Assembly: GCA_030698395.1 (NCBI GenBank)
Contig: JAUYKW010000005.1
Span: 1-62,400, forward strand
Origin: a bacterium
Lineage (GTDB): Bacteria; Patescibacteriota; Patescibacteriia; UBA9570
Direction of reading: 5' to 3'
Length of the DNA stretch: 62,400 bases
Made by a program: the position numbers and the translations under genes. The notes beneath the pieces were generated by a model. That model worked only from the letters and a program-made list of their open reading frames with translations. It had not been told where the DNA came from and ran no database searches. Shown piece by piece: positions 47,242-62,400 of this stretch (position 1 is the first letter of the stretch; every line of letters begins with the position of its first letter).

Positions 47242-47249
47242 AAAAGCCG

Positions 47250-47258
47250 TGTTATCAT
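47250..47258 (+). promoter_or_regulatory. Extended -10 TGtTATCAT, 6 nt upstream of the ATG at 47265
   Basis: tgttatcat at 47250-47258. Confidence 0.45.
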
Positions 47259-47264
47259 ACATGC

Positions 47265-48653
47265 ATGAAAAAATACTTATTTCCCTTAGTCTTTTTGGCT
47301 TTTTTACCATTCTCAGCGTTTGCTGTAGATGAGATGAATCCAGAAGTACACATATTCGACAATAACCTTAATCAAACAAATTCATTTACCGTATTTGACG
47401 GGCAATTTAAAGGAGGATCAGACGTCGCTTTAGCAGATGTTGATGGTGATGGAGCTGATGAAATTATTGTAGCTGCTGGTAGAGGCGGTGGACCAATGGT
47501 ACAAATTTGGGAAGCTGATGGCAGATTGATTAGTCAGTTCTTTGTATACGAAGAATATATTCATACTGGTATAAAGGTTGCAGCTGGAGATTTAGACGGA
47601 GATGGCAAAGCAGAAATTGTTACTGGAACAGAATTTGGAGGTGGTCCACATGTTCGAGTTTTTGATGCGAGCGGAAATGTACAATATACTCCTGGATTTT
47701 TTGCTTTTGATCAAGCATTTCGAGGGGGTGTTGATATTACAGTCGGAGACTTTAGTGGAAATGGAAGAGCGGAGATTGCTGCGTCAGCTGGGCCAAGTGG
47801 AGCACCCCACGTGCGTTTGTTTGATAGATTTGGTAATTATTTAGGAGCAGATTTTAGACCCTTTGCAGATGATAATAGAGGCGGAGTTGCATTAGCAACA
47901 GCCAATGTAGATGGTGGTGACGATGATGAATTGGTTATGTCTATTCAGGCTGCGGGAGAAGGTTGGGTAAAAGTTTATAAAAAGGACGGTACAATAGTAG
48001 GGGAATGGAAGAATTTTGATGGTTTATATACTGGAGTAACTATTGGAGCAGGCGATGTAGATGGGGATGGCAAAGATGAAATTGCTGTTACTCCTCGCCA
48101 TAACGCAGGTCCTCAAGTAGTGTTTTTTGAAGGTTATGGTCAGCAATTATCAAACTTTTTTGCTTATAATGATGACTTTAGAGGTGGTTTGCGAATAGCA
48201 GGTGGAGATCTTGATGGCGACGGAACGGATGAATTTGTCACAGTGCCAGGAAAAAATCGTTCTCAAGGAAGAGCTGATTTTATCAGATACATTGAAACTG
48301 ATATTTCAGATCAAACTACTAGAGTTTATGAATATGGAGAACTTATTCGAGAGTTTAGGGTTTCAACGGGTATTGCAAGATATCCTACACCGTTGGGTGA
48401 ATATAAAGTAACTCAGAAAATTTATAATAAAGATTATACCTGGAATTACGGAGAAAATCATCCAGATAATTATGATTTAAAAGATGTGAAATGGAATTTG
48501 CGATATAATGGGCCATTTCATTTACATTATGCTTATTGGCATAACAACTTTGGTCATCCAATGAGTCATGGTTGTACAAACATTGATCGGTGGAACGCAG
48601 AGTGGCTATATAACTGGGCGAATGTAGGAGATCCTGTTATCAATGTTCAATAA
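47265..48653 (+). CDS. FG-GAP/VCBS-like beta-propeller fused to an L,D-transpeptidase (YkuD) domain, copy 2
   Basis: Start taken at ATG 47265 (MKKYLFPLVFLAFLPFSAFA signal peptide); the track's 47205 start is a TTG. Six propeller repeats and the YkuD motif HYAYWHNNFGHPMSHGCTNID. Confidence 0.85.
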   Translation: MKKYLFPLVFLAFLPFSAFAVDEMNPEVHIFDNNLNQTNSFTVFDGQFKGGSDVALADVDGDGADEIIVAAGRGGGPMVQIWEADGRLISQFFVYEEYIHTGIKVAAGDLDGDGKAEIVTGTEFGGGPHVRVFDASGNVQYTPGFFAFDQAFRGGVDITVGDFSGNGRAEIAASAGPSGAPHVRLFDRFGNYLGADFRPFADDNRGGVALATANVDGGDDDELVMSIQAAGEGWVKVYKKDGTIVGEWKNFDGLYTGVTIGAGDVDGDGKDEIAVTPRHNAGPQVVFFEGYGQQLSNFFAYNDDFRGGLRIAGGDLDGDGTDEFVTVPGKNRSQGRADFIRYIETDISDQTTRVYEYGELIREFRVSTGIARYPTPLGEYKVTQKIYNKDYTWNYGENHPDNYDLKDVKWNLRYNGPFHLHYAYWHNNFGHPMSHGCTNIDRWNAEWLYNWANVGDPVINVQ

Positions 48654-49271: not shown

Positions 49272-51062
49272 ATGACAACTAGACAAAAATTATGGCTTTC
49301 AATTCTTGGGATTGTAGTGCTAGCAGTACTATCTGGGGTTGTTGATTATCCTAAAGGGCCGGATATTACTTGGAAGGGAGATATGGTACGAGAACTTAAG
49401 GTTCATCTTGGTTTAGATTTGCAAGGTGGAACTTCTTTGGTGTATGAGGCTGATTTATCAAATATAACAGAAGGTGAAGAACAGGAAGCAATGGCTGGTA
49501 TCAGAGATGTCTTAGAACGTCGGGTTAATGCTTTTGGAGTGTCTGAGCCGTTAGTGCAAACTAATAGAGCGGGTGATTCATGGAGAGTATTAATAGAATT
49601 ACCAGGAATTACTGATATCAATAGAGCAGTAGAAGAAATTGGAGAAACTCCTTTGCTTGAGTTTAAAACAGAAGGAGCCACTGAACTTTCAGAAGAACAA
49701 CTGGCATCCATTAGGAAGGTTAATGAGGAAAGCAAGGTAACAGCTCAAGCAATATTAGATCGTGTACAAGGTGGGGAGGATTTTTCAGAGATAGCGATTG
49801 CAGAAAGTGTTGATACTGTTTCTGGTGCAGAAGGCGGAGATTTAGGCTATTTTGCAAGGGGAGATATGGTTCCTGAATTCGAAGACGTTGCTTTTGCTGG
49901 AGAGGTTGGAGCAGTGATTCCAGAGTTAGTTGAAACTGAATTTGGTTTTCATATTATAAGAGTAGATGATAAAGCAATAGGAAATCCAGATGAGTTGAAT
50001 TCACAGGATGAAGCTGAAGTAAGTGAAGAAAACGTTGAATCACCAGAAGAAGTTTCAGTTGTTGAGAATACACCAGCGGATGCAGTTGCTATTGAAGATG
50101 CAGAGAATAATACAGACGTTGATAGTGAGAGTAATGCTGAAGAAGTAGTGCGGGCATCTCATATTTTAATTGGAAAAGTATCAGAAAATGCTGAAGATTA
50201 TGGAATTCAGTATGAAAACACTGAGTTAACGGGTAAACAGTTAAAAAGAGCAGATGTAGTATTTGATCAAAATACTACTGCGCCAATCGTATCATTATCA
50301 TTTGATAGTGAAGGATCCAAGTTATTCGAACAAATTACTTCAGATAATATTGGTAAAACTATCGCTATTTATTTGGATGGCGTAGCTATTAGCACTCCAG
50401 TCGTGAATCAGGTTATTTCAGGTGGGGAAGCGGTGATAGAGGGAAATTTTGATATTGAAGAAGCTAGAACATTATCAAGACGTTTAAATGCGGGTGCTTT
50501 GCCTGTGGATATAAATTTGGTAAACCAAAGAAACATTGGTCCAACATTGGGTGAAGAGGCGATACAACGTAGTGTTGTTGCTGGTCTATTAGGAGTAATA
50601 ATACTGGCATTCTTCATGGTTGCTTACTATCGATTACCAGGCTTAGTTGCAGTTGTTGCATTAAGCATATATGGATTAGTTTTATTAGCTATATTTAAGC
50701 TGTGGCCAATCACGTTAACATTATCTGGTGTTGCTGGATTCATCTTATCCTTAGGAATAGCCGTTGATGCTAATGTTTTAATATTTGAGCGTTTAAAGGA
50801 AGAGCTGCGTAATGGTAAATCTCTAGAGAAAGCAATAGATGATGGCTTTAAGAGAGCATGGCTATCGATTAGAGATTCAAATATGTCATCGTTAATTACT
50901 TGTTTAATTTTAATTTGGTTTGGTACGTCCGTTATTAAAGGATTTGCAATTACTTTATCTATTGGTATTGTTTTGAGTATGTTTTCAGCTATCACAATAA
51001 CTCGCAACATTCTTAAAATTGTTCCAATAAAAAATACTAGATTATTTGGTGTAAAAAGATGA
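49272..51062 (+). CDS. secD: Protein translocase subunit SecD with an inserted parvulin-type PPIase-like domain
   Basis: 596 aa. LGLDLQGGTSL, P1-domain motifs and 5 C-terminal TM helices. Residues ~155-233 read GEDFSEIA...GGDLGYFARGDMVPEFEDVAF...TEFGFHIIRV (parvulin core). Confidence 0.9.
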   Translation: MTTRQKLWLSILGIVVLAVLSGVVDYPKGPDITWKGDMVRELKVHLGLDLQGGTSLVYEADLSNITEGEEQEAMAGIRDVLERRVNAFGVSEPLVQTNRAGDSWRVLIELPGITDINRAVEEIGETPLLEFKTEGATELSEEQLASIRKVNEESKVTAQAILDRVQGGEDFSEIAIAESVDTVSGAEGGDLGYFARGDMVPEFEDVAFAGEVGAVIPELVETEFGFHIIRVDDKAIGNPDELNSQDEAEVSEENVESPEEVSVVENTPADAVAIEDAENNTDVDSESNAEEVVRASHILIGKVSENAEDYGIQYENTELTGKQLKRADVVFDQNTTAPIVSLSFDSEGSKLFEQITSDNIGKTIAIYLDGVAISTPVVNQVISGGEAVIEGNFDIEEARTLSRRLNAGALPVDINLVNQRNIGPTLGEEAIQRSVVAGLLGVIILAFFMVAYYRLPGLVAVVALSIYGLVLLAIFKLWPITLTLSGVAGFILSLGIAVDANVLIFERLKEELRNGKSLEKAIDDGFKRAWLSIRDSNMSSLITCLILIWFGTSVIKGFAITLSIGIVLSMFSAITITRNILKIVPIKNTRLFGVKR

Positions 51063-52015: not shown

Positions 52016-52039
52016 TAGCCAAAATAGTGGCTATTTTTT
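52016..52039 (+). terminator. Intrinsic terminator after secF
   Basis: tagcca (52016-52021), loop aaatag, tggcta (52028-52033), then T6 (52034-52039). Confidence 0.6.
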
Positions 52040-52087: not shown

Positions 52088-52116
52088 TTGACAGTTTGTA
52101 AAAGTTATGCTATACT
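52088..52116 (+). promoter_or_regulatory. Near-consensus promoter TTGACA-17-TATACT heading the 52.1-62.0 kb operon
   Basis: ttgaca at 52088-52093, 17-nt spacer, tatact at 52111-52116. About 46-nt leader to the ATG at 52163. Confidence 0.65.
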
Positions 52117-52162: not shown

Positions 52163-53302
52163 ATGTCAATAAATGACGCAACATCAGCTGGTGGGGGTTC
52201 TATTTTGGATAAAGTAATCGCAAGCAAGGAAGATCAAGAGAAACGTGACTTTGATCCCTCAGAAGTTATAAATCAACTATTAAAAACAATCTCAGATAAA
52301 GAAGCCGATGTATTACGGCGACGATTTGGATTGGGTGGAAAGGCGAAGGAAACATTAGAAGCAATTGGTAATTCGTATAATGTAACTAGAGAGCGAGTAA
52401 GACAAATTGAGAATCTTGCTGTAAAGAAAATTAAAGAGCATTCTAGTTTTGTAAATATGGTAAAGCCTGTAGAGCATGTGGTATTAACTGTGCTGGAGGA
52501 GAATGGGGGAATTATGAACGAGGCACATCTATTAGAAGAACTATTTACAGTTGGTAGATCAAAAAGTGATGATCAGGCAGTATTGTTTATGATTTCAGAG
52601 TTATTCGACTTTCGTTTTACAAAAGTAGGACCAAATGCCAAATTTGAGAAATCTTGGCAAGCTAAAACAGCAGATTTAGATTTTGTTATAAAAACAATTG
52701 AAATGCTAATAGACCTTATCAAAGAAGAAGATCAGCCAATGGAGCTGACGGTTTTGTACAACAGGGTGAAAGAGCGGGAATTTTATAAATTGAATGCCGA
52801 GAATTTAAATCGACAAATTATAACATCTTATTTACAAGTGAGTAAGAAAATAGCAGTAAATCCTTTCGGTGAGTATGGTTTGCGATCTTGGGGTAGTGTG
52901 ATGCCACGTAGAATGAATGACAAAATTTATCTCGTCTTGAAAAAAATGGGCAAACCTATGCATTTTGTTGATATTGCAAAACAAGTTTCTGAAGTGTTTA
53001 ACAAGGAAGCGTATCCGCCTACTGTGCATAACGAATTAATTTTGAATAAGCATTATGTGTTAGTTGGGAGAGGAATTTATGCACTTAAGGAATGGGGTTA
53101 TAAAAAAGGTGTAGTAGCTGATGTGATAATTGATGTGATGCGTAAAAGAGGGAACCCAATGCAACGAGATGAAATTGTTGATGCGGTTTTGAAGGAGCGG
53201 ATAGTAAAGAAGAACACTATTCATTTAGCACTTACTAATCGAGAGACATTTATTAAATTATCTGATGGGCGGTTTACTTTAAAGGAATCGATCAGCGAGT
53301 AG
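52163..53302 (+). CDS. Sigma-70 region-4 HTH protein with a C-terminal HARE-HTH-like domain (no sigma regions 2/3)
   Basis: 379 aa. DKEADVLRRRFGLGGKAKETLEAIGNSYNVTRERVRQIENLAVKKIK is a textbook sigma70 region 4.2. The C-terminus MHFVDIAKQVSEVF...VLVGRGIYALKEWGY resembles the HARE-HTH of the RNAP delta subunit. Confidence 0.7.
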   Translation: MSINDATSAGGGSILDKVIASKEDQEKRDFDPSEVINQLLKTISDKEADVLRRRFGLGGKAKETLEAIGNSYNVTRERVRQIENLAVKKIKEHSSFVNMVKPVEHVVLTVLEENGGIMNEAHLLEELFTVGRSKSDDQAVLFMISELFDFRFTKVGPNAKFEKSWQAKTADLDFVIKTIEMLIDLIKEEDQPMELTVLYNRVKEREFYKLNAENLNRQIITSYLQVSKKIAVNPFGEYGLRSWGSVMPRRMNDKIYLVLKKMGKPMHFVDIAKQVSEVFNKEAYPPTVHNELILNKHYVLVGRGIYALKEWGYKKGVVADVIIDVMRKRGNPMQRDEIVDAVLKERIVKKNTIHLALTNRETFIKLSDGRFTLKESISE

Positions 53303-53309
53303 AAAAATC

Positions 53310-55019
53310 ATGCCACCAATTTTCTACGAAATTATTGCAGAATACGGCAATAACCCTTTCCAGGCGATGTGGTTTTTATTTTCGCATGGTTTAGGCCTGA
53401 TTACTATTGTGCCAATTATGATTTGGTATGGTTGGGCAGGTTGGAGGCAATATACATTTGAACGTACTAAGCAGAGAAGAAATCATTTGATGTTTAAAAT
53501 TGATGTTCCACAGTTGAACGAACAAAGCATGAAAGCAGTGGAGCAAATCTTCGTTCATATATACGGTGGTGCACTAGATTCGCCAAATAATTTAGTAGAA
53601 ACATATTGGGATGGATTTTGGCAGGATAATTTTTCTTTTGAAATTGTGAGTAAAGGCGGGTATATATCATTTTATGTACGAGCGCCTGATTATCATAAAG
53701 ATTTAGTACAAGCTGCATTTTATGCTCAATATCCAGATGCAATTCTAACTGAGGTAGAGGATTATACAGAAGAAATGACCGTTGATATGATTATGGAGGG
53801 TAAAGTAAAAGTATGGGGCTCTGAGTTTCTTTTAGAAAGGGATGATACAATGCCGATTAGATCATGGCCACAATGGGAACATAGCTTGGTGGGTAGAGCG
53901 GTAGATCCTTTGGCGTCAGTTTTAGAAGTAATGAGTAGACTAGATCCTGGTGAAGAATGGTGGTTTCAGATATTAGCTCAACCGGCTGATTTGCCATCGT
54001 TTAAGCTTAGGGTACAGGCTGAAATTGATAAAGTAGTAGAGGCAGAGGGATTTAATTCTGGAGGAAAAGATTGGGTTGATAAGATAATTCAATTGCCACT
54101 TTCACTTTTAGAAACAATTCATGACTCTGTAGTGTCTGGAGAATGGTCTGATGCAGATAGTTCTAAACCAGTAACTGTAGAACAAAGAAAGAGACTCACA
54201 ACGCCAGAACGTGTATTTGTTGAGGAGTTAGATAATAAAAGGTCCCGTTGGGTATTTAAGAGCAAAATTAGATTTATGTATTTTGCTGAACCAAAAATTT
54301 ATAGTGAAGCAAAGGGTAGACGTGGTTTATTAGGGGCTTTGGCTCTGTATCGATTTATTAATACTTTTGTTGAGGGCATGATAACTAGAGTTGCAAAAAA
54401 TGCTCTTAAAATGAGATGGTTTTTTCCGGATTTAAGGGTACGTTGGCGGGCTCGGAGAATGTTTTGGGCGTATCGTTCTCGAGATATGCAACGTGGTGAA
54501 CATGATGGATTTATTTTAAATACTGAAGAATTAGCGAGTCTTTTTCATTTTCCGCAAATCGAAGTTCGTGCGCCTTATGTTTCTAAATCTTCTAGCCGTG
54601 GCGTGGAACCACCAACTCAGTTAGATTTTGATGATAGGCGATATGTTGATGAAGATAGAGTAATTCCAACAGTATCTGTAGAATCTGGTCAACAACAAAT
54701 ACAAAGTGATATTCCTGTTGCCAATATTGTTCCAGAACAACCATTACCTGGATATCCAGAACAACCACTAGCACAACAGCAGGTGTATTCCGGGCAACAG
54801 CCACAAACGGTTCAACAACAACCTCCTGTGCAATATCAGCAACCTTTAGATCAGCAAACATTGTCACATGCACAACAATCACCGGCTTATCCTTCAACTT
54901 CATATTCACAGCAACAACCAACAATGCAACAGCCTGCACCAAACTCAGCTGTGTCCGTGGAATTAGATGATGATATTTCAGATAAGGGAGCACCTCCCAG
55001 TAATTTACCAGTAGTATAA
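53310..55019 (+). CDS. Membrane-anchored protein of unknown function with a Q/P-rich tail (putative partner of the downstream ATPase)
   Basis: 569 aa. N-terminal TM segment (WFLFSHGLGLITIVPIMIWYGWAGW), a large soluble domain, then about 110 aa of Q/P-rich low complexity. 2-nt gap to the ATPase gene. Confidence 0.6.
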   Translation: MPPIFYEIIAEYGNNPFQAMWFLFSHGLGLITIVPIMIWYGWAGWRQYTFERTKQRRNHLMFKIDVPQLNEQSMKAVEQIFVHIYGGALDSPNNLVETYWDGFWQDNFSFEIVSKGGYISFYVRAPDYHKDLVQAAFYAQYPDAILTEVEDYTEEMTVDMIMEGKVKVWGSEFLLERDDTMPIRSWPQWEHSLVGRAVDPLASVLEVMSRLDPGEEWWFQILAQPADLPSFKLRVQAEIDKVVEAEGFNSGGKDWVDKIIQLPLSLLETIHDSVVSGEWSDADSSKPVTVEQRKRLTTPERVFVEELDNKRSRWVFKSKIRFMYFAEPKIYSEAKGRRGLLGALALYRFINTFVEGMITRVAKNALKMRWFFPDLRVRWRARRMFWAYRSRDMQRGEHDGFILNTEELASLFHFPQIEVRAPYVSKSSSRGVEPPTQLDFDDRRYVDEDRVIPTVSVESGQQQIQSDIPVANIVPEQPLPGYPEQPLAQQQVYSGQQPQTVQQQPPVQYQQPLDQQTLSHAQQSPAYPSTSYSQQQPTMQQPAPNSAVSVELDDDISDKGAPPSNLPVV

Positions 55020-55021
55020 AT

Positions 55022-57514
55022 ATGGCAAACGAAAAAAAAGATATCACAGTATTTGCAGAAACAAATTTCCGTAATATGCGTCGTAAATTTGGTATTAAAC
55101 CAGATGATCGTAGACGTCATATGTATGTGGTAGGTAAAACGGGTATGGGAAAATCTACTTTATTGGAGAACATGATTATCGATGATATCCGAAAAGGTAG
55201 AGGAGTTGCAGTTGTAGATCCGCATGGTGATTTAGCTGAACAAATTTTAGCCTTTATTCCAAAGACAAGAATCAATGATGTAATTTATTTCAATCCAGCT
55301 GATACACAATATCCGGTAGCATTTAATATTTTAGAAAGTGTCGGTGATGATTATAAACATTTAGTTGCATACGGATTGGTTGGAGTTTTTAAGAAGATCT
55401 GGGCAGACTCTTGGGGTCCTAGAATGGAATATATTCTTACAAATACTATATTAGTGTTGTTAGATTATCCAGGTAGTACATTGTTAGGAGTTATGCGGGT
55501 GTTGGTAGACAAGTCTTATCGAAAAAAGGTTGTGGCTAAAGTAACAGATCCAGTCGTAAAAACATTTTGGGCAGACGAATTTTCAAATTATTCTGAAAAA
55601 TTTAGAACAGAAGCTATTGCGCCTATTCAGAATAAAGTTGGTCAATTTTTATCGTCATCTATTATTAGAAATATTGTTGGACAATCCAAGAGTACAATTG
55701 AGATGCGACAAATTATGGATGAGCAGAAGATTTTAATTATGAATCTTTCGAAAGGTAGAGTTGGTGAAGAAAACTCAGCTTTATTAGGCGCTATGATGAT
55801 TACTAAACTTCAGATTGCAGCCATGAGTAGAGTTGATATACCAGAAAAGGATCGAATTGATTTTTATTTATATGTTGATGAATTTCAGAACTTTGCTACA
55901 GATAGTTTTGCTGGCATATTATCAGAAGCTAGAAAATATCGTTTGAATTTAATAATGGCCCACCAATATATTGAACAGCTTGGTGATGAAGTAAAGTACG
56001 CTGTGTTTGGAAATGTGGGTACTATGCTTATATTTCGTATAGGTGCAAATGATGCGTTGGAGATAGAGCCAGAATTTGGTCCTCAATTTGTGGCGCAAGA
56101 CATTGTAAATTTAAATAAATATAATTTTATTATTCGTTTAATGATTGATGGAATTGCTACTGAACCTTTTTCTGCGATTGGCTTACCCCCGGTTTCCAGT
56201 GAAGAAGCGAGTAGCGCAGATAAAGTTATTAAAGTGTCTCGTGAGCGTTATGCACGCCCCCAGGAGATTGTAGAGGATAGAATTATTCGATGGAGTGGTG
56301 TTGAGATAATCAAAAAGCCTGTGGAAGAAAAGAAGGATTCTGAACCTGATGCAGATGATCAAGATCAAGATGAGATGGATGATGATCTTTCTTCTTTTGT
56401 GGATCAAACAACCGAACGGCCACTAGAAACAGAACAGGATGAATCAGTTTTTGATGCACCAGTTAATACAGCTGGAATGATTCCGGATTTGCCAACGGCG
56501 GAGGAAATAGCATCAAGTTCTATAGCTACATCTCAAAATAATGGATCTGAAATAATAACTGAATCAGTTGAAATGGAACAGCCGCAGGGTGTAAATATTG
56601 GTTCTCCTGATACACCATTATTTGCACCGGCTAATTTTATACCAGGCGAGGATGAATTTATTCCAGCAACAATTCCAGATGAACCTAAAGAGGTTATTCA
56701 GGAAGTTTCTATTAAGAAAGCAGAGGTACAAATAGTTCCAGACGCTATGAAAGTAGAAGATAAGCCGGTGCAGGAAGTAGTTGTTGATTTAGAAGAAGAT
56801 GTAGATGGAGTGTTGAGTGATAAGAAAAAAATTAATTTTATACAAACTGATTTATCAGACAAAGATGAGTCAGCAGTTGATTCAAATAAGCCTGTAGTAT
56901 CATTATTTGATCTTAGACACGGCAATGCTCCAACTGTTAATTTTTCAGGTGGATCAGTAAAAGATTCTAAAGCAAAGAATCGTGATAACAAACAGGATGA
57001 ACAAAAAAATAGAGATACAACTGAGCAAAGTAAATCAGGACAGGATAAACGTGTTGATAATACAGTGCATAAGGAAGAAACAGAGAGAAAGAATGATAGA
57101 CAAAAAGAAGTTAGAGAAGATATAAAAATAAATAATCAAGAAAAACCTAATCAGCAAAGCAATGTAGCTAGTCAGGATCAAAGAAATGGTAGTGAATCTT
57201 CATCTGTGGAGCAATTACAACCAAAGAAGAAAAGAAAGCGGAATCGAAAGCGGAATCGGAATAGGGAATCAGAGTCAATACAGGAACCAAGACAGCAAAA
57301 TAATAGAGATCAGAAATCTTCTGAAGATCCGAAGCCTATAAATCAGTCGCAACAGCAAGCTGGAGATCGTCAGCCTTCACAGTCACAGCACTCTCAGGGT
57401 TCTCAATTAGTTCCAGAGAATAAACAAGAAAAGAAGCATGAAGATAATCAATCAGATAAATCATCTGATGATGGAGATGCTACTACAAAAATTTCATTAG
57501 ACGATTTTATTTAA
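55022..57514 (+). CDS. TraD/VirD4/FtsK-HerA-superfamily P-loop ATPase lacking TM helices, with a ~400-aa disordered tail
   Basis: 830 aa. Walker A GKTGMGKST (nt 55133-55159), Walker B FYLYVDEFQNF, ARKYRLNLIMAHQY (coupling-protein-like). The tail runs acidic, then S/T/P-rich, then K/R/Q/N-rich (KKKRKRNRKRNRNR). Confidence 0.75.
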   Translation: MANEKKDITVFAETNFRNMRRKFGIKPDDRRRHMYVVGKTGMGKSTLLENMIIDDIRKGRGVAVVDPHGDLAEQILAFIPKTRINDVIYFNPADTQYPVAFNILESVGDDYKHLVAYGLVGVFKKIWADSWGPRMEYILTNTILVLLDYPGSTLLGVMRVLVDKSYRKKVVAKVTDPVVKTFWADEFSNYSEKFRTEAIAPIQNKVGQFLSSSIIRNIVGQSKSTIEMRQIMDEQKILIMNLSKGRVGEENSALLGAMMITKLQIAAMSRVDIPEKDRIDFYLYVDEFQNFATDSFAGILSEARKYRLNLIMAHQYIEQLGDEVKYAVFGNVGTMLIFRIGANDALEIEPEFGPQFVAQDIVNLNKYNFIIRLMIDGIATEPFSAIGLPPVSSEEASSADKVIKVSRERYARPQEIVEDRIIRWSGVEIIKKPVEEKKDSEPDADDQDQDEMDDDLSSFVDQTTERPLETEQDESVFDAPVNTAGMIPDLPTAEEIASSSIATSQNNGSEIITESVEMEQPQGVNIGSPDTPLFAPANFIPGEDEFIPATIPDEPKEVIQEVSIKKAEVQIVPDAMKVEDKPVQEVVVDLEEDVDGVLSDKKKINFIQTDLSDKDESAVDSNKPVVSLFDLRHGNAPTVNFSGGSVKDSKAKNRDNKQDEQKNRDTTEQSKSGQDKRVDNTVHKEETERKNDRQKEVREDIKINNQEKPNQQSNVASQDQRNGSESSSVEQLQPKKKRKRNRKRNRNRESESIQEPRQQNNRDQKSSEDPKPINQSQQQAGDRQPSQSQHSQGSQLVPENKQEKKHEDNQSDKSSDDGDATTKISLDDFI

Positions 57515-57522
57515 ATATATAG

Positions 57523-59193
57523 ATGGATAATCAAATAGATTCGAACGTTTGTGCTTTGTGTGGGGGATTATTTGGAATAACTGTTCAAGAGAAAGAGCTA
57601 TTATTTAAATTTGGAGTGCCCAATCCAAAACTTTGTTCTAATTGTAGATTGCAGAGACGTTATGCGATGCGAAACGAGCGAGTTTTTTATAATAGAAAAT
57701 GTGATCTTACAGATCAACCAATTGTATCGATTTTTCACGAGGAAAGTCCCTATACCGTCTATAGTCAGGATGCTTGGTGGTCTGATGACTGGGATCAATT
57801 TAAATTTGGAAAGGACTATGATTTAACTCGTCCTTTTTTTGAACAATTAAAGGAGCTGCAATTACAGCAACCTCGAATTGCCTTGTTAGCAAAAGATAGT
57901 GATAACTCTGAATATACAAATCATTCTGCTCATAATAAAGATTGCTATATTGGATTTTCTTTAGTCAATTGTGAAAAAGTGTTATATGGATACTTTTGTT
58001 TTGATGTTAGCTATTTAGTTGATTGTACGAATATGTTTAATAAATCTGAACTTTGTTATGAATGCTTTAATTGTCATCAATGCTATGGATGTGTGTATAC
58101 AGTTGAAAGTCGAGGTTGTACTAATGTATGGTTTTCATATGATATGAGTGGATGCGAAGACTGTTTCTTGAGTTGGAATTTGCGGAATGCAAAGTATTGT
58201 TACATGAATGAACAACTAACCAAAGAAGAATATGAAAAGAAGGTTGCAGAATTTAAAGTTTTATCTGATTCAGATAGACGTAAGTTAATAGAGCAATGGC
58301 GAGATAATATTAAAAATAAAGCAATTCATCAATCTAGTCGTTTTATTAATACAGAAAATTCTACTGGAGATTATCTAGCAAATTGTACAAATGTAAATAA
58401 TGGCTTTGTGGTAACGAATGGTGAGAATAGTGCTAATTTATTATATTGCGTAGATGTTAAAGATGTGATGGATTGTTGTAATACAGCTCCGGCTGAATTT
58501 TGCTATGAAATGACTGGTACTATAAATAATAATCATTCTAAATTTATTAATTATTCATATGACAACGATTTTATTGAGTACTGTGATCATGTGTTTAATT
58601 CTCAATATCTATTTGGTTGTGTATGCTTAAACAAACAAAAATATTGTATTTTAAATAAGCAGTATACAGAATCTGAATATGAAAGATTAAAAGTACAGAT
58701 TATTGCACAAATGAAAAAAGATGATGAGTATGGTGAGTTTTTTCCTTTTTCTTATTCTCCTTTTGCATATAATGAAACATTAGCTAATGATTTATTTCCT
58801 CTTACCCCAGAGCATGCAGAAACACTAGGTGCTAGATGGCTAGATGAGCGAAAAGAGGGTGTTAATCGTAATGCCGTAATAGATGCGAACGATCTTCCAG
58901 AAATGATTACGGAAGTGGATAATTCAATTCTTGAAAAAACAATTATTTGTGAAGATTCTGGAAAACCATTTCAGATTAAATCACAAGAGTTGGAAATATA
59001 TAGAAAATTAGGAGTACCTTTACCACGTAAACACCCTGAAGTTAGGTATCAGGATAGATTAACATTGCGTACCCCATTAGAATTACACGATAGGGAATGT
59101 AGTAAGTGTGGGATAAGTCTTATATCCACCTATAGTTCAACAAGACCAGAAACAGTTTATTGCGATAAATGTTATAAAGAAGTAATATATTAA
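57523..59193 (+). CDS. Cys-rich multi-zinc-ribbon protein, paralog A (unknown family)
   Basis: 556 aa with 32 Cys (hand count). N- and C-terminal CxxC...P.P..C..CR...R...C..C modules and a duplicated central array of Cys-containing ~20-aa repeats. Confidence 0.7.
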   Translation: MDNQIDSNVCALCGGLFGITVQEKELLFKFGVPNPKLCSNCRLQRRYAMRNERVFYNRKCDLTDQPIVSIFHEESPYTVYSQDAWWSDDWDQFKFGKDYDLTRPFFEQLKELQLQQPRIALLAKDSDNSEYTNHSAHNKDCYIGFSLVNCEKVLYGYFCFDVSYLVDCTNMFNKSELCYECFNCHQCYGCVYTVESRGCTNVWFSYDMSGCEDCFLSWNLRNAKYCYMNEQLTKEEYEKKVAEFKVLSDSDRRKLIEQWRDNIKNKAIHQSSRFINTENSTGDYLANCTNVNNGFVVTNGENSANLLYCVDVKDVMDCCNTAPAEFCYEMTGTINNNHSKFINYSYDNDFIEYCDHVFNSQYLFGCVCLNKQKYCILNKQYTESEYERLKVQIIAQMKKDDEYGEFFPFSYSPFAYNETLANDLFPLTPEHAETLGARWLDERKEGVNRNAVIDANDLPEMITEVDNSILEKTIICEDSGKPFQIKSQELEIYRKLGVPLPRKHPEVRYQDRLTLRTPLELHDRECSKCGISLISTYSSTRPETVYCDKCYKEVIY

Positions 59194-59195
59194 GT

Positions 59196-59618
59196 ATGAA
59201 GAAATTATTATTACTTACCTTAATATTTTTTACGGGATGTTCATTAGCTGGAACTGATCCAGCAACCTCTGTATTATATTCTGGTGACATTACTGGAGAC
59301 GATGTGTTAGAAATAGTTACAATAGTTGAAAGTGACGTTACTGTATCGGAAGAATTTAGTGAAACTTATCCATTTACTTTCAATGAACTGTATGTGGAGT
59401 CTGAGGATAGAACTTTATTAACAATTGATAGTAATGGGGTTACTGTAGAAAATGGAGATAGTGTAAGAGCTCAAGTATCAACCCAGGCTGGTTATGCTAT
59501 CCAATTAGGAGAAAAGGATTTTATGTATGTTGTTCAAATTGATGAATTTGGATCTCCAGTTAGTGAACCATTAACAATTAACTGGGATATTAGTACTGCC
59601 GGTTGGAAAATGAAATAG
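59196..59618 (+). CDS. Small lipoprotein
   Basis: 140 aa. MKKLLLLTLIFFTGC signal peptide with a lipobox-like FTGC. Confidence 0.65.
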   Translation: MKKLLLLTLIFFTGCSLAGTDPATSVLYSGDITGDDVLEIVTIVESDVTVSEEFSETYPFTFNELYVESEDRTLLTIDSNGVTVENGDSVRAQVSTQAGYAIQLGEKDFMYVVQIDEFGSPVSEPLTINWDISTAGWKMK

Positions 59619-59619
59619 C

Positions 59620-61260
59620 ATGGCTATAACATGTACCGATTGTGCTAAGGAATTTGTACTAGATGGGCAAGATAAGGAATTGTTGTCTAGACTTAATGTA
59701 CCTAATCCGACCAAATGCCCAGTTTGCAGACTACAAAGAAGATTAGCATATTGGACGTTTGGCAAATTTCGTCAGCGTCAGGATGATATTACTGGAAAAA
59801 TGATTATTTCTGTATTTGGATCAGATGTAAGATTTCCAGTTACTGATAGAAGTAATTGGCATTCTGACAATTGGGTTGCACCCAGCATGGAGATCGATTT
59901 TAGTCGGTCTTTTTTTGAGCAATTAAAAGAGTTGCAAGAACAGACACCGCATTTTCATATGTTGGGAGATGATAAAAATGTAAACTGTGATTATTCGGAT
60001 GATGTATGGAGTTGTAAGGATTGTTACCATTGTCGATCTATGTACAAGGTAGAAAATTCGCATTTTATTTATAGAGTAATTGAAGCTAGAGATTGTTTGG
60101 ATTGTACTTATTCTTATAATCTTGAAAATTGCTATGACAACACTTATTGTTTTAAAAATTATCAGTTATTTTATTCATTAGATTCGAGAGATTGTACCGA
60201 TAGTTATTTTTTGTATGATTGCAGAGGGGTGAAGAATTCTTTTATGTGTTGGAATTTACGAAATAAAGAATATTGCATTAGGAATAAACAATATTCTGCG
60301 GAAGAGTATAATAAAGAAATTCAGAAGATTAAATTGAATTCTTGGCAGACTATTAAGGAGTTGAAAAATGAGTTTACAGAACATCTTCAAACTGATGCGA
60401 TTCATAGAGTAACTTACCAAAATAAATGTGAAGAATGTGAAGGTAATTATTTAAATAATTGTAAAAATATAACAAATGGTTTTTTTGTGGAGGATTCTGA
60501 GAATTGCCAAAATATTTTTAGATCTATAGAAAATAAAGATACTCTAGATGTTACCGGAGCATTAGCTGAAGAGTTGAGTTACGAAACAATCCAATCAGCT
60601 GAGTTATACAATGTGAAGTTTGCCGCGATGTCTATCAGATGCAGAGATTCTGAATACCTGGATCAGTGCATAGATTTGGATCAATGTTTTGGCTGTGTAG
60701 GATTAAAGAAAAAGAAATATTCAATATTAAATAAACAATATTCAGAGAATGATTATAAAAATTTGAAGGATAAGATAATTTCTAAGATGAAAGCGGATGG
60801 TGAGTATGGAGAATTTCTACCATACAACATGATGTATACGGGATATAACCAAAGTTTTGCCAACTATTATTTTCCACAAACAAGAGATAATATTTTAAAT
60901 AAAGGTGGTTATTGGGACGAGATAGAATCATCCGAAGAGGGGAGCAGATCAGCTGTTCAGCTTTCCGACATAGTAGAGAATTATGATGAAGTTGTGGGAA
61001 AAGTATTATCTTGTGAAGTTACGAAAAGAGATTTTAAAATTGTCCCTCAGGAAATTGAATTTTACAAGCAACATAAAATTCCGGTACCAAGGATTCATCC
61101 AGATGAACGCAATCTACAACGCTTCCGAATGATGCCAGGCATTAAGCCTTATGTCATTAAATGTAACGCGTGTAACGATGATCTTCTAACTTATTATCCA
61201 CCAGAGTGGGGATATAAAAAAATACTATGTGATACATGTTATATGGGTTGGATTTATTAA
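59620..61260 (+). CDS. Cys-rich multi-zinc-ribbon protein, paralog B
   Basis: 546 aa with 29 Cys (hand count). Colinear with paralog A (shared FFEQLKELQ, WNLRN..YC..N.Q....EY, GEYGEF, terminal C..CY). Confidence 0.7.
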   Translation: MAITCTDCAKEFVLDGQDKELLSRLNVPNPTKCPVCRLQRRLAYWTFGKFRQRQDDITGKMIISVFGSDVRFPVTDRSNWHSDNWVAPSMEIDFSRSFFEQLKELQEQTPHFHMLGDDKNVNCDYSDDVWSCKDCYHCRSMYKVENSHFIYRVIEARDCLDCTYSYNLENCYDNTYCFKNYQLFYSLDSRDCTDSYFLYDCRGVKNSFMCWNLRNKEYCIRNKQYSAEEYNKEIQKIKLNSWQTIKELKNEFTEHLQTDAIHRVTYQNKCEECEGNYLNNCKNITNGFFVEDSENCQNIFRSIENKDTLDVTGALAEELSYETIQSAELYNVKFAAMSIRCRDSEYLDQCIDLDQCFGCVGLKKKKYSILNKQYSENDYKNLKDKIISKMKADGEYGEFLPYNMMYTGYNQSFANYYFPQTRDNILNKGGYWDEIESSEEGSRSAVQLSDIVENYDEVVGKVLSCEVTKRDFKIVPQEIEFYKQHKIPVPRIHPDERNLQRFRMMPGIKPYVIKCNACNDDLLTYYPPEWGYKKILCDTCYMGWIY

Positions 61261-61284
61261 TTAGTAGGTGATAAAGGTGTTAAA

Positions 61285-62013
61285 ATGACGGAACAATTCG
61301 AAAAATTTAAACCGGAAGATATTTTTATGATGCCAAAGCACGTAACAGATGTTTTGGTTAATGGCATAACACTTCCAGATGCTGAAGTTGTATACCAAGA
61401 TGATGATATCGTCGTGCAACGATTAGCAAGATTGTCTGATTATATTAGAGGTGTGGGAAATGTAAATTTGAATATTGATTTTCGATGTTCTACCCAAGAG
61501 TATCCGACAGAATTAGAGACTTTAGAATTTCGTTATGATTTGCCTAGCGAAGACGGTGAGCCGATTGCTGACTTGGGGTTCTACATGATGAATGAAGGTG
61601 AATATGATCTTGGACATCGTTATGTTTCCCCAGAGTATAGATATAGCGGGGGTAAGGCTAGCGGTATTGGTTCACAACTTTTTGCGCGAGCTGAATTAGC
61701 ATTTCAGGAATTGGCAAATCGTACACAAGAGTCGGTTGTGATTTATATAGATTTAGCACAATTGAGCGTGTTGAATTGGGCTTTAAAAAATGGTTTTGAA
61801 CCAGAAGAAGAAAGTACTGAATTGATGAAACAAATATTGGAACATCCTGAAGATTTTGATTTGGAAGATATTGTAGATAAAGTAGACGGAGTTACTAAAG
61901 AGCAGTTTATATTTAGAAAAGACACTAGGAAGAGAGATCGTCATACTGCAGAACGAGTTTTGCTATCAAAGACTATTCAACCAGAAGAAAATTCACAAGC
62001 TTTGCTTGAATAG
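61285..62013 (+). CDS. GNAT-like acetyltransferase-fold protein (tentative)
   Basis: 242 aa. HRYVSPEYRYSGGKASGIGSQLFARAELAFQEL resembles GNAT motif A (acetyl-CoA P-loop-like xxGxG). Otherwise unrecognised. Confidence 0.4.
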   Translation: MTEQFEKFKPEDIFMMPKHVTDVLVNGITLPDAEVVYQDDDIVVQRLARLSDYIRGVGNVNLNIDFRCSTQEYPTELETLEFRYDLPSEDGEPIADLGFYMMNEGEYDLGHRYVSPEYRYSGGKASGIGSQLFARAELAFQELANRTQESVVIYIDLAQLSVLNWALKNGFEPEEESTELMKQILEHPEDFDLEDIVDKVDGVTKEQFIFRKDTRKRDRHTAERVLLSKTIQPEENSQALLE

Positions 62014-62125
62014 GTGTAAGTTATATTTTGATTTTTATGGTATAGATGCAGTTTACATCTCAAGCTTATTTTATAGCTAGTATTAGCCAAGAAATCAGCA
62101 TCAGGCGAAATAAATCAAAAACCAT

Positions 62126-62154
62126 TTGACTACGTTTAACTCTAAGGATAAGCT
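62126..62154 (+). promoter_or_regulatory. Promoter TTGACT-17-TAAGCT, 6 nt upstream of the ATG at 62161
   Basis: ttgact at 62126-62131, taagct at 62149-62154. Confidence 0.4.
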
Positions 62155-62160
62155 TTTATC

Positions 62161-62400
62161 ATGAAAAAACAATGTAAAAAATGTTCAATAGAGTTTAACA
62201 TCTCTAACAAGGATAAAGAGTTCTACACCAAAATAAGCGCTCCGGAGCCTTCTATGTGTCCGGATTGTCGGATGCAAAAAAGAATGGCTTATCGTAATGA
62301 GCGTGTTTTGTATCCCTCAACTTGTGGTATGTGTAAAAAAAGCATGTTATCGATGTATAAGGAGGAAGATGGATTTTTAGTTTATTGTTTAGATTGTTGG
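62161..62400 (+). CDS. Cys-rich zinc-ribbon protein, paralog C (3' end outside window)
   Basis: MKKQCKKCSIEFNISNKDKEFYTKISAPEPSMCPDCRMQKRMAYRNERVLYPSTCGMCKKSMLSMY...YCLDCW has the same N-terminal module as paralogs A and B. The ORF is still open at the window end. Confidence 0.65.
   Translation, partial: MKKQCKKCSIEFNISNKDKEFYTKISAPEPSMCPDCRMQKRMAYRNERVLYPSTCGMCKKSMLSMYKEEDGFLVYCLDCW

What the first reader, a model, noticed from the sequence alone, without database searches (positions are those of the whole stretch)
57523..62400. Three paralogs of a large Cys-rich protein built from terminal zinc-ribbon modules and an internally duplicated Cys-repeat core
Paralog A has 556 aa with 32 Cys, and paralog B has 546 aa with 29 Cys. 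Paralog C is partial, with 80 aa visible.
- All three share an N-terminal module: CxxC-x3-F-x-[ILV]-x3-[DE]K[DE][FL][LY]...P.P..C..CR.Q[RK]R.A[YM].
- In A and C it continues RNERV.Y...C and, in C, ends with a C..C...[STM].Y...YC..C[WY] pattern.
- A and B repeat a related module at the C-terminus, with K/IHP replacing the second CxxC and a terminal C..CY.
- Between the two modules lie two copies of an array of ~20-aa Cys-containing repeats.
- Each array ends in the same punctuation: WNLRN.(K/E)YC...N.Q(L/Y).(K/A)EEY and L(N/K)K.KY.ILNKQY(T/S)E.(E/D)Y.
- Shared motifs include FFEQLKELQ and GEYGEF.

I cannot assign the family. The density and regularity of Cys suggest many structural Zn or Fe-S sites, or a disulfide-rich beta-helix-like solenoid. 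Their amplification to three copies in a streamlined genome, next to a TraD-like motor, suggests they matter.
Basis: partly seen in the sequence, partly recalled or inferred. Interest (0 to 1): 0.7.

Follow-up and report, generated by a model that had tools for sequence, protein, structure and literature searches.

The report
Zinc-capped double beta-solenoid paralog array
The three genes belong to a very large, uncharacterised protein family found only in the tiny-celled Patescibacteria (CPR), built from zinc-finger end caps around two narrow cysteine-lined beta-solenoids and kept in operon-like arrays of up to eleven ancient copies, often beside an orphan secretion-type ATPase; its function is unknown.

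Summary
A (57523-59193, 556 aa, 32 Cys), B (59620-61260, 546 aa, 29 Cys) and partial C (from 62161) are paralogs with related terminal modules and an internally duplicated core.

The family is large (6,200 clusters at 50% identity), named only from Patescibacteria, uniform in length and unannotated. AlphaFold (pLDDT 91) gives a Zn module, solenoid, helical hairpin, second solenoid, acidic linker and second Zn module, with no significant PDB match.

The core repeat is 12 residues with a 3-residue sub-period, not ~20. Core Cys are inward ladder residues that exchange with Ser/Leu/Val and show no ligand-set behaviour. Only the terminal treble-clef sites are kept or lost as Cys4 units (two in A and B).

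Related loci hold 3-11 tandem paralogs that are ancient (about 43% identity) and rarely decayed, often with a TrmB regulator (28/84 loci) or a TrwB-like ATPase (24/84). The ATPase link is facultative: only 4/80 ATPase-first loci carry the family.

The upstream gene has a VirB4 N-domain fold (DUF8128), so the "TraD-like motor" is a split VirB4/VirD4-type ATPase.

My best guess, held with low confidence, is cytoplasmic adaptors or clients of that ATPase.

The parts
57523..59193 (+). Paralog A, 556 aa, terminal Zn-site pattern Z--Z (two complete Cys4 sites)
   Evidence: ORF. AlphaFold pLDDT 91, pTM 0.90. Family HMM E 5e-240. Site pattern.
57544..57807 (+). A, N-terminal module (residues 8-95). 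It has an intact zf_Tbcl-type Cys4 site (C10, C13, C38, C41), an Arg-rich helix, and a degenerate second site that keeps only C60.
   Evidence: Cys conservation. Relatives pass PF13451. Secondary structure.
57874..58218 (+). A, solenoid 1 (about residues 118-232): 12-residue coils with Cys/Ser/Leu inward every third residue, closed by WNLRN..YC..N
58219..58323 (+). A, helical hairpin between the two solenoids (residues 233-267)
   Evidence: DSSP helices 234-244 and 249-266
58324..58662 (+). A, solenoid 2 (residues 268-380), a duplicate of solenoid 1 closed by YCILNKQY
   Evidence: Internal duplication E 4e-8. Periodicity.
58663..58932 (+). A, helix plus conserved acidic linker (residues 381-470, GE(W/Y)GEFFP...SPF.YNE), median net charge -7 in the family
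   Evidence: Conservation. Charge.
58933..59193 (+). A, C-terminal module (residues 471-556). The first site is degenerate (C476, H504). The zf_Tbcl_2-type Cys4 site is intact (C526, C529, C547, C550). The module is basic.
59620..61260 (+). Paralog B, 546 aa, same architecture, terminal pattern Z--Z
   Evidence: zf_Tbcl is sub-threshold at 17.4 bits.
62161..62400 (+). Paralog C, the first 80 aa only (cut by the window end). Both N-terminal Cys4 sites are intact (8 Cys).
   Evidence: zf_Tbcl scores 22.5 bits.
55022..57514 (+). ATPase: a TrwB/VirD4-like nucleotide-binding domain (residues 1-426) followed by an about 400-aa low-complexity tail. Its stop lies 8 nt before the start of A.
   Evidence: PF10412 scores 37.5 bits against a cut-off of 20.5. 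Best PDB sequence hits are TrwB and DotL. Recurs next to family arrays.
53310..55019 (+). DUF8128 (PF26449) membrane protein: N-terminal helices, then a VirB4 N-terminal-domain fold, then a Q-rich tail. It is fused to the ATPase in other lineages.
   Evidence: AlphaFold pLDDT 89. The top 13 Foldseek hits are all TrwK/VirB4. Fusions. Pfam name.
52163..53302 (+). Sigma70 region 4 plus HARE-HTH protein, the first gene of the likely transcription unit. It is a constant partner of DUF8128 and the ATPase.
   Evidence: Pfam. Co-occurrence in metagenome loci. L164 and L165.
52088..52116 (+). Promoter-like site (TTGACA-17-TATACT with TG, 11/12 matches) after a terminator-like hairpin at 52016-52033. 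No + strand terminator-like site follows downstream of 52748.
   Evidence: Consensus scan only
59196..59618 (+). 140-aa predicted lipoprotein between A and B. It was not found in the other arrays.
   Evidence: ORF with the lipobox-like N-terminus MKKLLLLTLIFFTGC. No homolog in 163 other loci.
61285..62013 (+). 242-aa ORF between B and C with a weak GNAT-like match. It was not found in the other arrays.

Best explanation
**Shown.** A, B and C are members of a very large Patescibacteria-only family of about 550-aa proteins with no signal peptide.
- Each protein runs: tandem treble-clef Zn-finger module (zf_Tbcl plus zf_Tbcl_2 type, Arg-rich, basic); a narrow four-sided beta-solenoid of 12-residue coils; a helical hairpin; a second solenoid; a conserved acidic linker; and a second Zn module.
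- Zn is bound only in the terminal modules. A and B have two Cys4 sites. Relatives have one to four.
- The twenty-odd core Cys are inward-facing ladder residues of the solenoid, not metal ligands or disulfide pairs.
- The genes form co-oriented, tightly spaced arrays of 3 to 11 or more ancient paralogs kept under purifying selection.
- Arrays often contain a TrmB-type regulator. In several lineages, including this one, they lie directly after a split or fused VirB4-N-domain/TrwB-like ATPase.

**Inferred.** The proteins are soluble cytoplasmic scaffolds.
- Their conserved basic Zn caps and acidic linker dock onto a shared partner: the hexameric ATPase or its long tail, or a nucleic acid.
- Their variable outward solenoid faces (Tyr/Phe/Glu/Lys-rich) give each paralog its own binding specificity.
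- They would then be a panel of adaptors or clients for the orphan T4SS-type ATPase.
For: **Architecture**
- AlphaFold pLDDT 91, pTM 0.90.
- Relatives hit PF13451 and PF23477 above threshold.
- Period 3 and 12 in the Cys columns, in the profile autocorrelation and in the DSSP pattern.

**Zn only at the termini**
- Terminal sites are all-or-none: CCCC 177 observed against 20 expected.
- Core 4-Cys sets match independence: 217 against 205.
- Mean phi is -0.14 at separation 6 and positive at separation 12.
- The Cys register is C 38%, S 18%, L 9%, N 7%, V 6%.

**Charges**
- Caps are +2 and +6. The core is -4 and -3. The linker is -7.

**Family size and distribution**
- More than 3,311 homologs and 6,200 clusters at 50% identity.
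- At least 570 genome loci. Those listed are Patescibacteria, apart from a few bins labelled otherwise.

**Arrays**
- 51 of 84 loci hold three or more copies, with a maximum of 11.
- The median best within-locus identity is 43%. For 190 of 206 proteins, the closest relative lies in another locus.
- The median gap between adjacent family genes is 58 nt, and 65 of 182 gaps are 20 nt or less.

**ATPase link**
- 24 of 84 loci have the ATPase nearby: 20 of 51 arrays against 1 of 23 single-copy loci.
- The ATPase is flanked by seven paralogs in a Staskawiczbacteria genome.
- In the closest relatives, L164 and L165, the order is sig, DUF8128, ATPase, then the array. The ATPase stop overlaps the first family gene's start by 4 nt.
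- Arrays flanked by two ATPase copies occur in L014, L137 and L163.
- The DUF8128 domain is fused to the ATPase in about 15 loci.

**Regulator**
- A TrmB-family regulator lies in 28 of 84 loci.
Against: - There is no direct evidence of interaction with the ATPase.
- Starting from the ATPase (80 metagenome loci, 58-70% identical to the window's nucleotide-binding domain), only 4 carry family genes within 10 kb. That is roughly what chance overlap with arrays could give.
- The ATPase's constant partners are the sigma-r4/HARE-HTH protein and DUF8128, within housekeeping synteny from SecDF to PGK. Arrays may simply have landed there in some lineages.
- The 84 family-first loci are phylogenetically non-independent, with many from Peribacteria.
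- Single-copy members sit in unrelated contexts, such as purine genes in L001.
- I could not inspect model coordinates. Handedness, the position of the caps relative to each other, and Cys S-S distances are therefore unknown.
Confidence: 0.4

Rival explanations
1. The proteins work independently of the ATPase. They would be TrmB-regulated cytoplasmic proteins that bind nucleic acid through their basic Zn caps, or that stack end to end into heteromeric filaments or scaffolds as other beta-solenoids do. Adjacency to the ATPase would be inherited synteny or a favoured insertion site between the ATPase and PGK.
For: - Only 4 of 80 ATPase-first loci carry the family.
- The TrmB regulator is at least as frequent a neighbour as the ATPase: 28 against 24 of 84 loci.
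- The caps are basic and Arg-rich.
- Ancient, stably maintained paralogs fit a hetero-oligomer or a set of distinct fixed targets.
- Single-copy loci lack the ATPase in 22 of 23 cases.
Against: - 24 of 84 family-first loci have the ATPase, against roughly 4% expected for about two ATPase genes per megabase genome. That expectation is my estimate, using the gene count in PMC12102498.
- Linkage persists through rearrangements: the ATPase lies before, inside or after arrays, and is sometimes duplicated.
- Stop/start overlaps occur in L164 and L165.
Confidence: 0.27
2. The proteins are exported substrates. The VirB4/VirD4-like ATPase with its DUF8128 membrane partner would recognise the basic C-terminal module and move the paralogs out of the cell. 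There the Cys-rich solenoids would oxidise into stable surface or host-contact structures. This would be analogous to FtsK/TrwB-type ATPases encoded with arrays of paralogous substrates in type VII systems.
For: - A membrane-anchored ATPase partner is present, and the operon is tightly packed.
- The C-terminal module is positively charged, median +6.
- From general knowledge, paralog arrays next to translocation ATPases are typical of secretion substrates.
- The 12-residue Cys-lined coil recalls extracellular insect antifreeze helices. This is from memory and was not tested.
Against: - No channel components (VirB6/VirB8-like) lie in the window or were recurrent in the loci.
- Cys at i and i+6 are anti-correlated, and Cys exchanges with Leu/Val, which does not suit disulfide pairs.
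- Terminal Cys4 sites behave as Zn sites, which is typical of intracellular proteins.
- The paralogs are ancient and conserved, unlike most surface or effector families.
Confidence: 0.15
3. This is the first reader's reading: the core is a multi-metal protein, with many Zn or Fe-S sites along the solenoid axis formed by the CxxCxxCxxC runs.
For: - Cys-rich members have coils with four inward Cys, for example CxxCxxCxxC runs in the L017 and L049 proteins.
- The last coil of solenoid 1 is well conserved, with Cys fractions of 0.72, 0.90, 0.94 and 0.68.
Against: - Four-Cys sets occur at the rate expected from independent columns (217 against 205; 80 against 58), unlike the terminal sites (177 against 20).
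- Core Cys counts range from 4 to 19 per half.
- Replacements include Leu, Val and Ile.
- A and B themselves lack a complete four-Cys coil.
Confidence: 0.08

Closest known systems
Pfam zf_Tbcl (PF13451) and zf_Tbcl_2 (PF23477), 'probable treble clef' Zn domains
   Same: The terminal modules match these models. Relatives score above threshold. They have CxxC...CxxC pairs and an Arg-rich helix after the second knuckle. The weak PDB sequence hits are LIM-type treble clefs.
   Different: These Pfam entries have no known function and cover only about 80 of 550 residues. A, B and C themselves score below threshold. In A and B one site of each tandem pair has decayed.
12-residue-coil beta-helix of beetle antifreeze protein (Tenebrio molitor type, TCTxSxxCxxAx; recalled from memory)
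   Same: Both have 12-residue coils with a small inward residue (Cys/Ser/Ala) every third position, and a very narrow core.
   Different: There is no i/i+6 Cys pairing, no signal peptide and no Thr-x-Thr face. The family has two solenoids flanked by Zn modules and is bacterial. Foldseek did not return this protein, so this is resemblance, not homology.
Left-handed beta-helix hexapeptide-repeat proteins (LpxA, LpxD, GlmU)
   Same: These are the best Foldseek matches, reflecting generic beta-solenoid character.
   Different: E is 1e-3 or worse, TM is 0.12 or lower, and rmsd is 15-20 A. The period here is 12, not 18, and there is no hexapeptide signature.
Type IV coupling protein with its adaptor/substrate set (e.g. 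DotL with DotN/IcmSW), and type VII EccC/EssC with arrays of paralogous substrates
   Same: A TrwB/FtsK-type ATPase with a long tail is encoded beside multiple paralogous soluble proteins. A Cys-rich Zn protein (DotN) acts as a coupling-protein adaptor in Legionella (general knowledge).
   Different: No sequence or fold relation to those adaptors or substrates was found. No secretion channel genes are nearby. The linkage is facultative.
Orphan VirD4-like T4CP genes of Patescibacteria (Quinonero-Coronel et al. 2025, PMC12102498)
   Same: The neighbouring ATPase is of this class. The paper reports 5,713 such genes in 2,918 genomes, only 148 of them near virB4, and suggests exaptation.
   Different: A word search of that paper for 'zinc', 'cysteine' and 'paralog' found no mention of this Zn-capped solenoid family. 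The other two points I did not check in the paper: the DUF8128/VirB4-N-domain partner and the sigma-r4/HARE-HTH partner, both seen here.

Membership tests
zf_Tbcl (PF13451) | Two CxxC knuckles about 20-25 residues apart forming one Cys4 site | tested here: met
   C10/C13/C38/C41 in A, C5/C8/C33/C36 in B and in C. CCCC in 414 of 492 family members.
zf_Tbcl (PF13451) | Score at or above the Pfam gathering threshold (24 bits) | tested here: inconclusive
   A has no hit, B scores 17.4 and C scores 22.5 bits. Relatives P0044 (30.8), P0010 (25.2) and P0071 (24.8) pass.
zf_Tbcl_2 (PF23477) | Score at or above the gathering threshold (27 bits) at the C-terminal CxxC...CxxC | tested here: inconclusive
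   A and B have no hit. Relatives P0037 (27.8), P0064 (27.9) and P0090 (27.5) pass. The four Cys are present in A and B.
Left-handed beta-helix (hexapeptide repeat) | Hexapeptide period with 18-residue coils, and a significant fold match | tested here: not met
   The period is 3/12. Foldseek gives E 1.4e-3 or worse and TM 0.12 or lower.
Disulfide-bonded 12-residue antifreeze-type beta-helix | 12-residue coil with an inward small residue every third position | tested here: met
Disulfide-bonded 12-residue antifreeze-type beta-helix | One cross-coil Cys pair (i, i+6) per coil, and a secreted protein | tested here: not met
   Mean phi is -0.14 at separation 6. The N-terminus is a Zn knuckle, not a signal peptide.
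Multi-site Zn or Fe-S protein (core) | Ligand sets conserved or lost as units | tested here: not met
   Core: 217 observed against 205 expected. Terminal control: 177 against 20.
Type IV coupling protein VirD4/TrwB (neighbouring gene 55022-57514) | TrwB-type nucleotide-binding domain | tested here: met
   PF10412 scores 37.5 against a cut-off of 20.5. Best PDB hits are TrwB at 1e-6 and DotL at 5e-4.
Type IV coupling protein VirD4/TrwB (neighbouring gene) | Own N-terminal transmembrane domain, and encoded with VirB4, channel or relaxase genes | tested here: not met
   Walker A sits at about residue 40 with no preceding TM segment. The TM helices are in the separate DUF8128 protein. The annotated ORFs of the window (about 34 of the ~50 + strand ORFs of 90 aa or more, including all the large ones) carry housekeeping or unassigned domains, none T4SS-related.
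VirB4 (DUF8128 protein plus ATPase taken together) | VirB4 N-terminal-domain fold preceding the ATPase domain | tested here: met
   The top 13 Foldseek hits are all TrwK/VirB4, E 1e-5 to 4e-4, probability 1.00. The two are fused in about 15 loci.
VirB4 (DUF8128 protein plus ATPase taken together) | Sequence membership (CagE_TrbE_VirB-type Pfam/NCBIfam models) and a T4SS gene cluster | tested here: not met
   No such hits. No T4SS genes nearby.
Known anti-phage defence systems (PADLOC) | Match of the family proteins to a defence-system model | tested here: not met
   No hit for A or B. The ATPase gives only weak HerA/mad8 hits.

The most novel reading that the evidence does not exclude
The arrays, the DUF8128/TrwB-like ATPase and the sigma-r4/HARE-HTH protein together form a previously unrecognised Patescibacteria-specific machine derived from type IV secretion ATPases but lacking a T4SS channel. 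The Zn-capped, Cys-laddered double solenoids would be its dedicated substrates or specificity adaptors, each ancient paralog handling a different cargo or target. This would explain the thousands of 'orphan T4CP' genes reported in this phylum.
Probability: 0.2. Interest if true: 0.85.

Novelty: new variant of a known kind. Interest (0 to 1): 0.62.

Why it matters
- Patescibacteria have roughly 1-Mb genomes with little room to spare. Yet some carry 9-11 copies of this 1.7-kb gene in one locus. One assembly has at least 20 family ORFs, some partial, in two loci (L013 and L080, from the same bin), which is a few percent of a ~1-Mb genome.
- The paralogs are old, conserved and rarely broken, so they are being used.
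- The family has no annotation beyond a sub-threshold Zn-finger hit and no structural relative in the PDB. My searches found no paper on it.
- It offers a concrete handle on two open questions: what the thousands of orphan VirD4-like ATPases in this phylum do, and what lineage-specific machinery underlies the CPR lifestyle.
- It is also a clean example of a Cys-rich protein whose Cys are mostly packing residues, not ligands. That is a caution for sequence-only inference.

Tried and rejected
- **Family libraries.** Pfam, NCBIfam and PADLOC scans of A, B and C gave only sub-threshold zf_Tbcl hits.
- **PDB by sequence.** The single-sequence search gave only a weak zinc-finger and a LIM-type (avian cysteine-rich protein) hit. 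The profile search gave only LIM-type hits, all to the C-terminal module.
- **Foldseek of the A model.** Against PDB and BFVD there was nothing at E below 1e-3. I rejected the left-handed beta-helix hits as generic solenoid similarity.
- **Exhaustive profile search.** All of the top 150 hits were full-length family members, so it gave no lead to distant relatives.
- **Fe-S, multi-Zn and disulfide readings of the core.** Rejected by the Cys co-occurrence statistics.
- **Recent amplification or decay.** Rejected: identities cluster at 40-45%, none exceeds 68%, and I found only three in-frame stops and a few frameshift splits among 295 ORFs.
- **Selenocysteine at the L058 TGA.** It falls at a conserved Cys codon, but it is a single case, so I treat it as a nonsense mutation.
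- **Phage origin.** Rejected: one marginal partial hit in 2.9 million viral contigs.
- **Obligatory ATPase partnership.** Rejected by the ATPase-first control.
- **Literature.** Four full-text searches and four papers found nothing on the family.
- **Naming the organism.** A cluster look-up returned no names.

Full report
**1. The observation**

The ORF list and translations reproduce the finding exactly:
- A is 57523-59193 (556 aa, 32 Cys).
- B is 59620-61260 (546 aa, 29 Cys).
- C starts at 62161, and 80 aa (8 Cys) are visible before the window ends.

The relationships between the copies are well above chance:
- A and B align end to end at 35% identity, E 2e-105.
- C aligns to the N-terminus of A (E 2e-19) and also to the C-terminal module of A (E 7e-11).
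- The C-module of A aligns to the N-module of B (E 5e-8).
- The two halves of the core align to each other, E 4e-8 in A and 3e-13 in B.
- All the quoted motifs are in the sequence.

One detail needs correcting: the repeat unit is 12 residues, not about 20.
- In a 492-sequence family alignment, the Cys-bearing columns sit on a single mod-3 register for about 100 residues in each half.
- Profile autocorrelation shows a period of 3 with the main peak at lag 12: 0.41 in half 1 and 0.29 in half 2.

**2. What the protein is**

Library and structure searches place only the ends of the protein:
- Pfam, NCBIfam and PADLOC give nothing for A, and only sub-threshold zf_Tbcl hits for B and C.
- Relatives pass the thresholds for zf_Tbcl (PF13451) at the N-terminus. 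They also pass for zf_Tbcl_2 (PF23477) at the C-terminus and sometimes at residues 51-85.
- Each terminal module is therefore a tandem pair of treble-clef Zn fingers.

AlphaFold2 with a 102-sequence alignment gives a confident single-body model (pLDDT 91, pTM 0.90). Its parts, in order, are:
- the N-terminal Zn module;
- a helix;
- a beta-rich solenoid (about residues 118-232);
- a helical hairpin;
- a second solenoid (residues 268-380);
- a helix and a conserved acidic linker;
- the C-terminal Zn module.

DSSP bridges recur every third residue from 182 to 230 and match at +12. This is a four-sided coil of 12 residues.

Neither Foldseek nor sequence searches found a structural relative:
- Foldseek finds no match at E below 1e-3 in PDB or BFVD. 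The best hits are hexapeptide left-handed beta-helices, with TM of 0.12 or lower.
- Sequence and profile searches of the PDB find only weak zinc-finger and LIM-type hits for the last Zn site.

**3. What the cysteines do**

The terminal sites behave as metal sites and are kept or lost as units:
- The second N-terminal site is CCCC in 177 sequences, C--- in 241 and ---- in 72. Independence would predict 20 CCCC.
- Site architectures across 492 members are Z--Z in 172 (A and B), ZZZZ in 108, Z-ZZ in 68, ZZ-Z in 54 and ---Z in 50.

The core cysteines do not behave as metal sites:
- Four-Cys sets within a coil occur at the independent-column rate (217 against 205; 80 against 58).
- Cys presence correlates best at separation 12, which is stacking on successive coils. 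It is negatively correlated at separation 6, which is across the coil.
- The register holds C 38%, S 18%, L 9%, N 7% and V 6%.
- Core Cys counts range from 4 to 19 per half.

The core Cys are therefore inward ladder residues of a very narrow solenoid. They are not Fe-S or Zn ligands or obligatory disulfide pairs.

A and B each have two complete Zn sites. The next register is Tyr/Glu/Lys/Phe-rich and points outward. The third register is Asn/Asp/Gly-rich and forms the corners.

Charges are segregated: the caps are +2 and +6, the solenoids -4 and -3, and the linker -7.

**4. Distribution and genome organisation**

The family is large and restricted to one phylum:
- A word-indexed search finds more than 3,311 homologs. 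Those that carry a name are hypothetical or 'zinc-ribbon domain' proteins of Patescibacteria.
- An exhaustive profile search finds 6,200 clusters at 50% identity, 2,550 of them below 1e-30.
- A scan of one genome per species finds at least 570 loci. The 80 fetched are Patescibacteria of several classes, plus a few bins labelled otherwise.

In 84 loci I found 295 family ORFs of 525-590 aa with 23-46 Cys:
- 51 loci have three or more tandem copies, and two loci have 11 copies in 21 kb.
- Copies are co-oriented and closely spaced. The median gap is 58 nt, and 65 of 182 gaps are 20 nt or less.

The paralogs are old and maintained:
- The best within-locus identity has a median of 43% and never exceeds 68%.
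- For 190 of 206 proteins, the closest relative is in another locus.
- Subfamily order is partly conserved between related genomes.
- Only three in-frame stops and a few frameshift splits were seen.
- The family is essentially absent from viral contigs.

**5. Neighbours**

An unbiased clustering of all other ORFs in these loci gives two recurrent neighbours:
- a TrmB-family HTH regulator, in 28 of 84 loci, usually antisense and within 200 bp of a family gene;
- the ATPase, in 24 of 84 loci (20 of 51 arrays, 1 of 23 single-copy loci).

The ATPase lies before, inside or after arrays and is sometimes present twice, as in L014, L137 and L163. In a Staskawiczbacteria genome seven paralogs flank it.

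The window's closest relatives (L164, L165) have this gene order: SecDF, the sigma-r4/HARE-HTH gene, DUF8128, the ATPase, then the array. L164 carries five family genes and a TrmB regulator. L165 carries three family genes before the contig ends. In both, the ATPase stop overlaps the first family gene's start by 4 nt.

In the window, a promoter-like site precedes the sigma-r4 gene. No + strand terminator-like site follows up to the window end. This rests on a consensus scan only.

**6. The control that weakens the link**

I started from the ATPase instead of the family. A profile of its nucleotide-binding domain retrieved 80 metagenome loci at 58-70% identity to the window's copy.
- Family genes are within 10 kb in only 4 of 80 loci, or 4 of 58 with adequate flanks.
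- The constant partners there are the sigma-r4/HARE-HTH protein and DUF8128. Both are present in 26 of 41 loci with enough upstream DNA.
- These sit in housekeeping synteny between SecDF and PGK.

The association is therefore real from the family side. It is about seven times my rough chance estimate, and it survives rearrangement. But it is facultative, and it could partly reflect insertion at a favoured site.

**7. What the 'TraD-like motor' is**

- The 830-aa protein has a TrwB-type nucleotide-binding domain. PF10412 scores above threshold. The best PDB sequence hits are TrwB and DotL. A roughly 400-aa low-complexity tail follows.
- It has no transmembrane segment of its own.
- The upstream 569-aa protein (PF26449, DUF8128) models confidently (pLDDT 89). 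It has N-terminal helices followed by a domain whose top 13 Foldseek hits are all TrwK/VirB4 of plasmid R388 (E 1e-5 to 4e-4, probability 1.00).
- Part of that domain is fused in front of the ATPase domain in about 15 loci, giving proteins of about 750 aa.
- Together the two genes are a split VirB4-N-domain plus T4CP-like ATPase.
- The annotated ORFs of the window (about 34 of the ~50 + strand ORFs of 90 aa or more) are housekeeping or unassigned, and none matches a T4SS component.
- This fits the report that Patescibacteria carry 5,713 VirD4-like genes, of which only 148 lie near virB4, and that these may have been exapted (PMC12102498).

**8. Mechanism**

Shown:
- the architecture of the protein;
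- Zn binding only at the caps;
- Cys ladders in the core;
- ancient operonic arrays;
- recurrent TrmB and ATPase neighbours.

Inferred:
- the conserved basic caps and acidic linker are the common docking surfaces;
- the variable outward solenoid faces carry paralog-specific recognition;
- the proteins serve as adaptors or clients of the orphan ATPase.

I put the structural description at about 0.85 and the ATPase-linked function at about 0.35.

Three rivals remain:
- ATPase-independent nucleic-acid-binding or filament-forming scaffolds (0.27);
- exported substrates that oxidise outside the cell (0.15);
- a multi-metal core (0.08).

**9. Novelty**

- The parts (treble-clef fingers, beta-solenoids, TrwB-like ATPases) are known kinds.
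- The combination is not in Pfam beyond its end caps, has no PDB relative, and did not turn up in my literature searches. The same goes for the 12-residue Cys-laddered double solenoid and its maintenance as large arrays of ancient paralogs in minimal genomes.
- I rate it a new variant of known kinds. There is a real but unproven chance that it marks a new phylum-specific machine.

Noticed in passing
window 53310-55019: The 569-aa membrane protein upstream of the ATPase is DUF8128 (PF26449). Its AlphaFold model matches only the N-terminal domain of VirB4/TrwK (R388). In other lineages part of it is fused to the ATPase, so the 'orphan T4CP' of Patescibacteria looks like a VirB4-N-domain/T4CP-type chimera.
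   Followed up: yes
window 52163-53302; metagenome loci L084-L163: A sigma70 region 4 plus HARE-HTH protein is the constant first gene of a unit made of itself, DUF8128 and the ATPase. Both partners are present in 26 of 41 loci with enough upstream DNA. The unit usually lies between SecDF and PGK.
   Followed up: partly
window 56300-57514: The ATPase carries an about 400-aa low-complexity tail, acidic at first and then Lys/Arg/Gln/Asn/Ser-rich. Tails of 250-400 aa also occur in L014, L026, L037, L040 and L045.
   Followed up: no
L003-L083, e.g. L051:9134-9904(-), L067:13511-14299(-); L164:15185-15961: A roughly 260-aa TrmB-family HTH regulator with an unassigned C-terminal domain sits inside or beside the arrays in 28 of 84 loci, mostly antisense. 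None is visible in the window, which ends inside paralog C.
   Followed up: partly
A residues C60, C476 and H504 (window 57700-57702, 58948-58950, 59032-59034): When the inner Zn sites are lost, their first Cys is still kept, often with a His (patterns C--- with C-H- in 92 of 492 sequences). A cross-module site or another role is possible. Unexplained.
   Followed up: partly
L058:12796-12798; L021:11201-11203; L060:10490-10492: Three family genes carry in-frame stops. One is a TGA exactly at the conserved Cys of YCILNKQY, one is a TAG at the conserved Trp of GEWGEFFP, and one is a TAA. They are most simply point-mutated pseudogenes or sequencing errors.
   Followed up: partly
window 59196-59618 and 61285-62013: A 140-aa predicted lipoprotein and a 242-aa weakly GNAT-like ORF are interleaved between the paralogs. 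Neither has a homolog in the 163 other loci examined.
   Followed up: partly
window 49272-51062; L164:708-2372: SecD carries an inserted PPIC-type peptidyl-prolyl isomerase (rotamase) domain between its first P1 segment and the P1 head. The same is seen in the relative L164.
   Followed up: no
window 5943-7454 and 7448-9034: Two adjacent, overlapping genes both encode cofactor-independent phosphoglycerate mutase (iPGM_N plus Metalloenzyme domains).
   Followed up: no
window 33737-35632, 45565-47001, 47205-48653: There are three FG-GAP-repeat proteins. Two of them are tandem paralogs ending in a YkuD L,D-transpeptidase domain.
   Followed up: no
window 2937-5642 (- strand): This is the only large gene on the minus strand (901 aa) and it has no Pfam match. 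Almost every other gene is on the + strand, and GC skew is positive throughout except around this gene.
   Followed up: no
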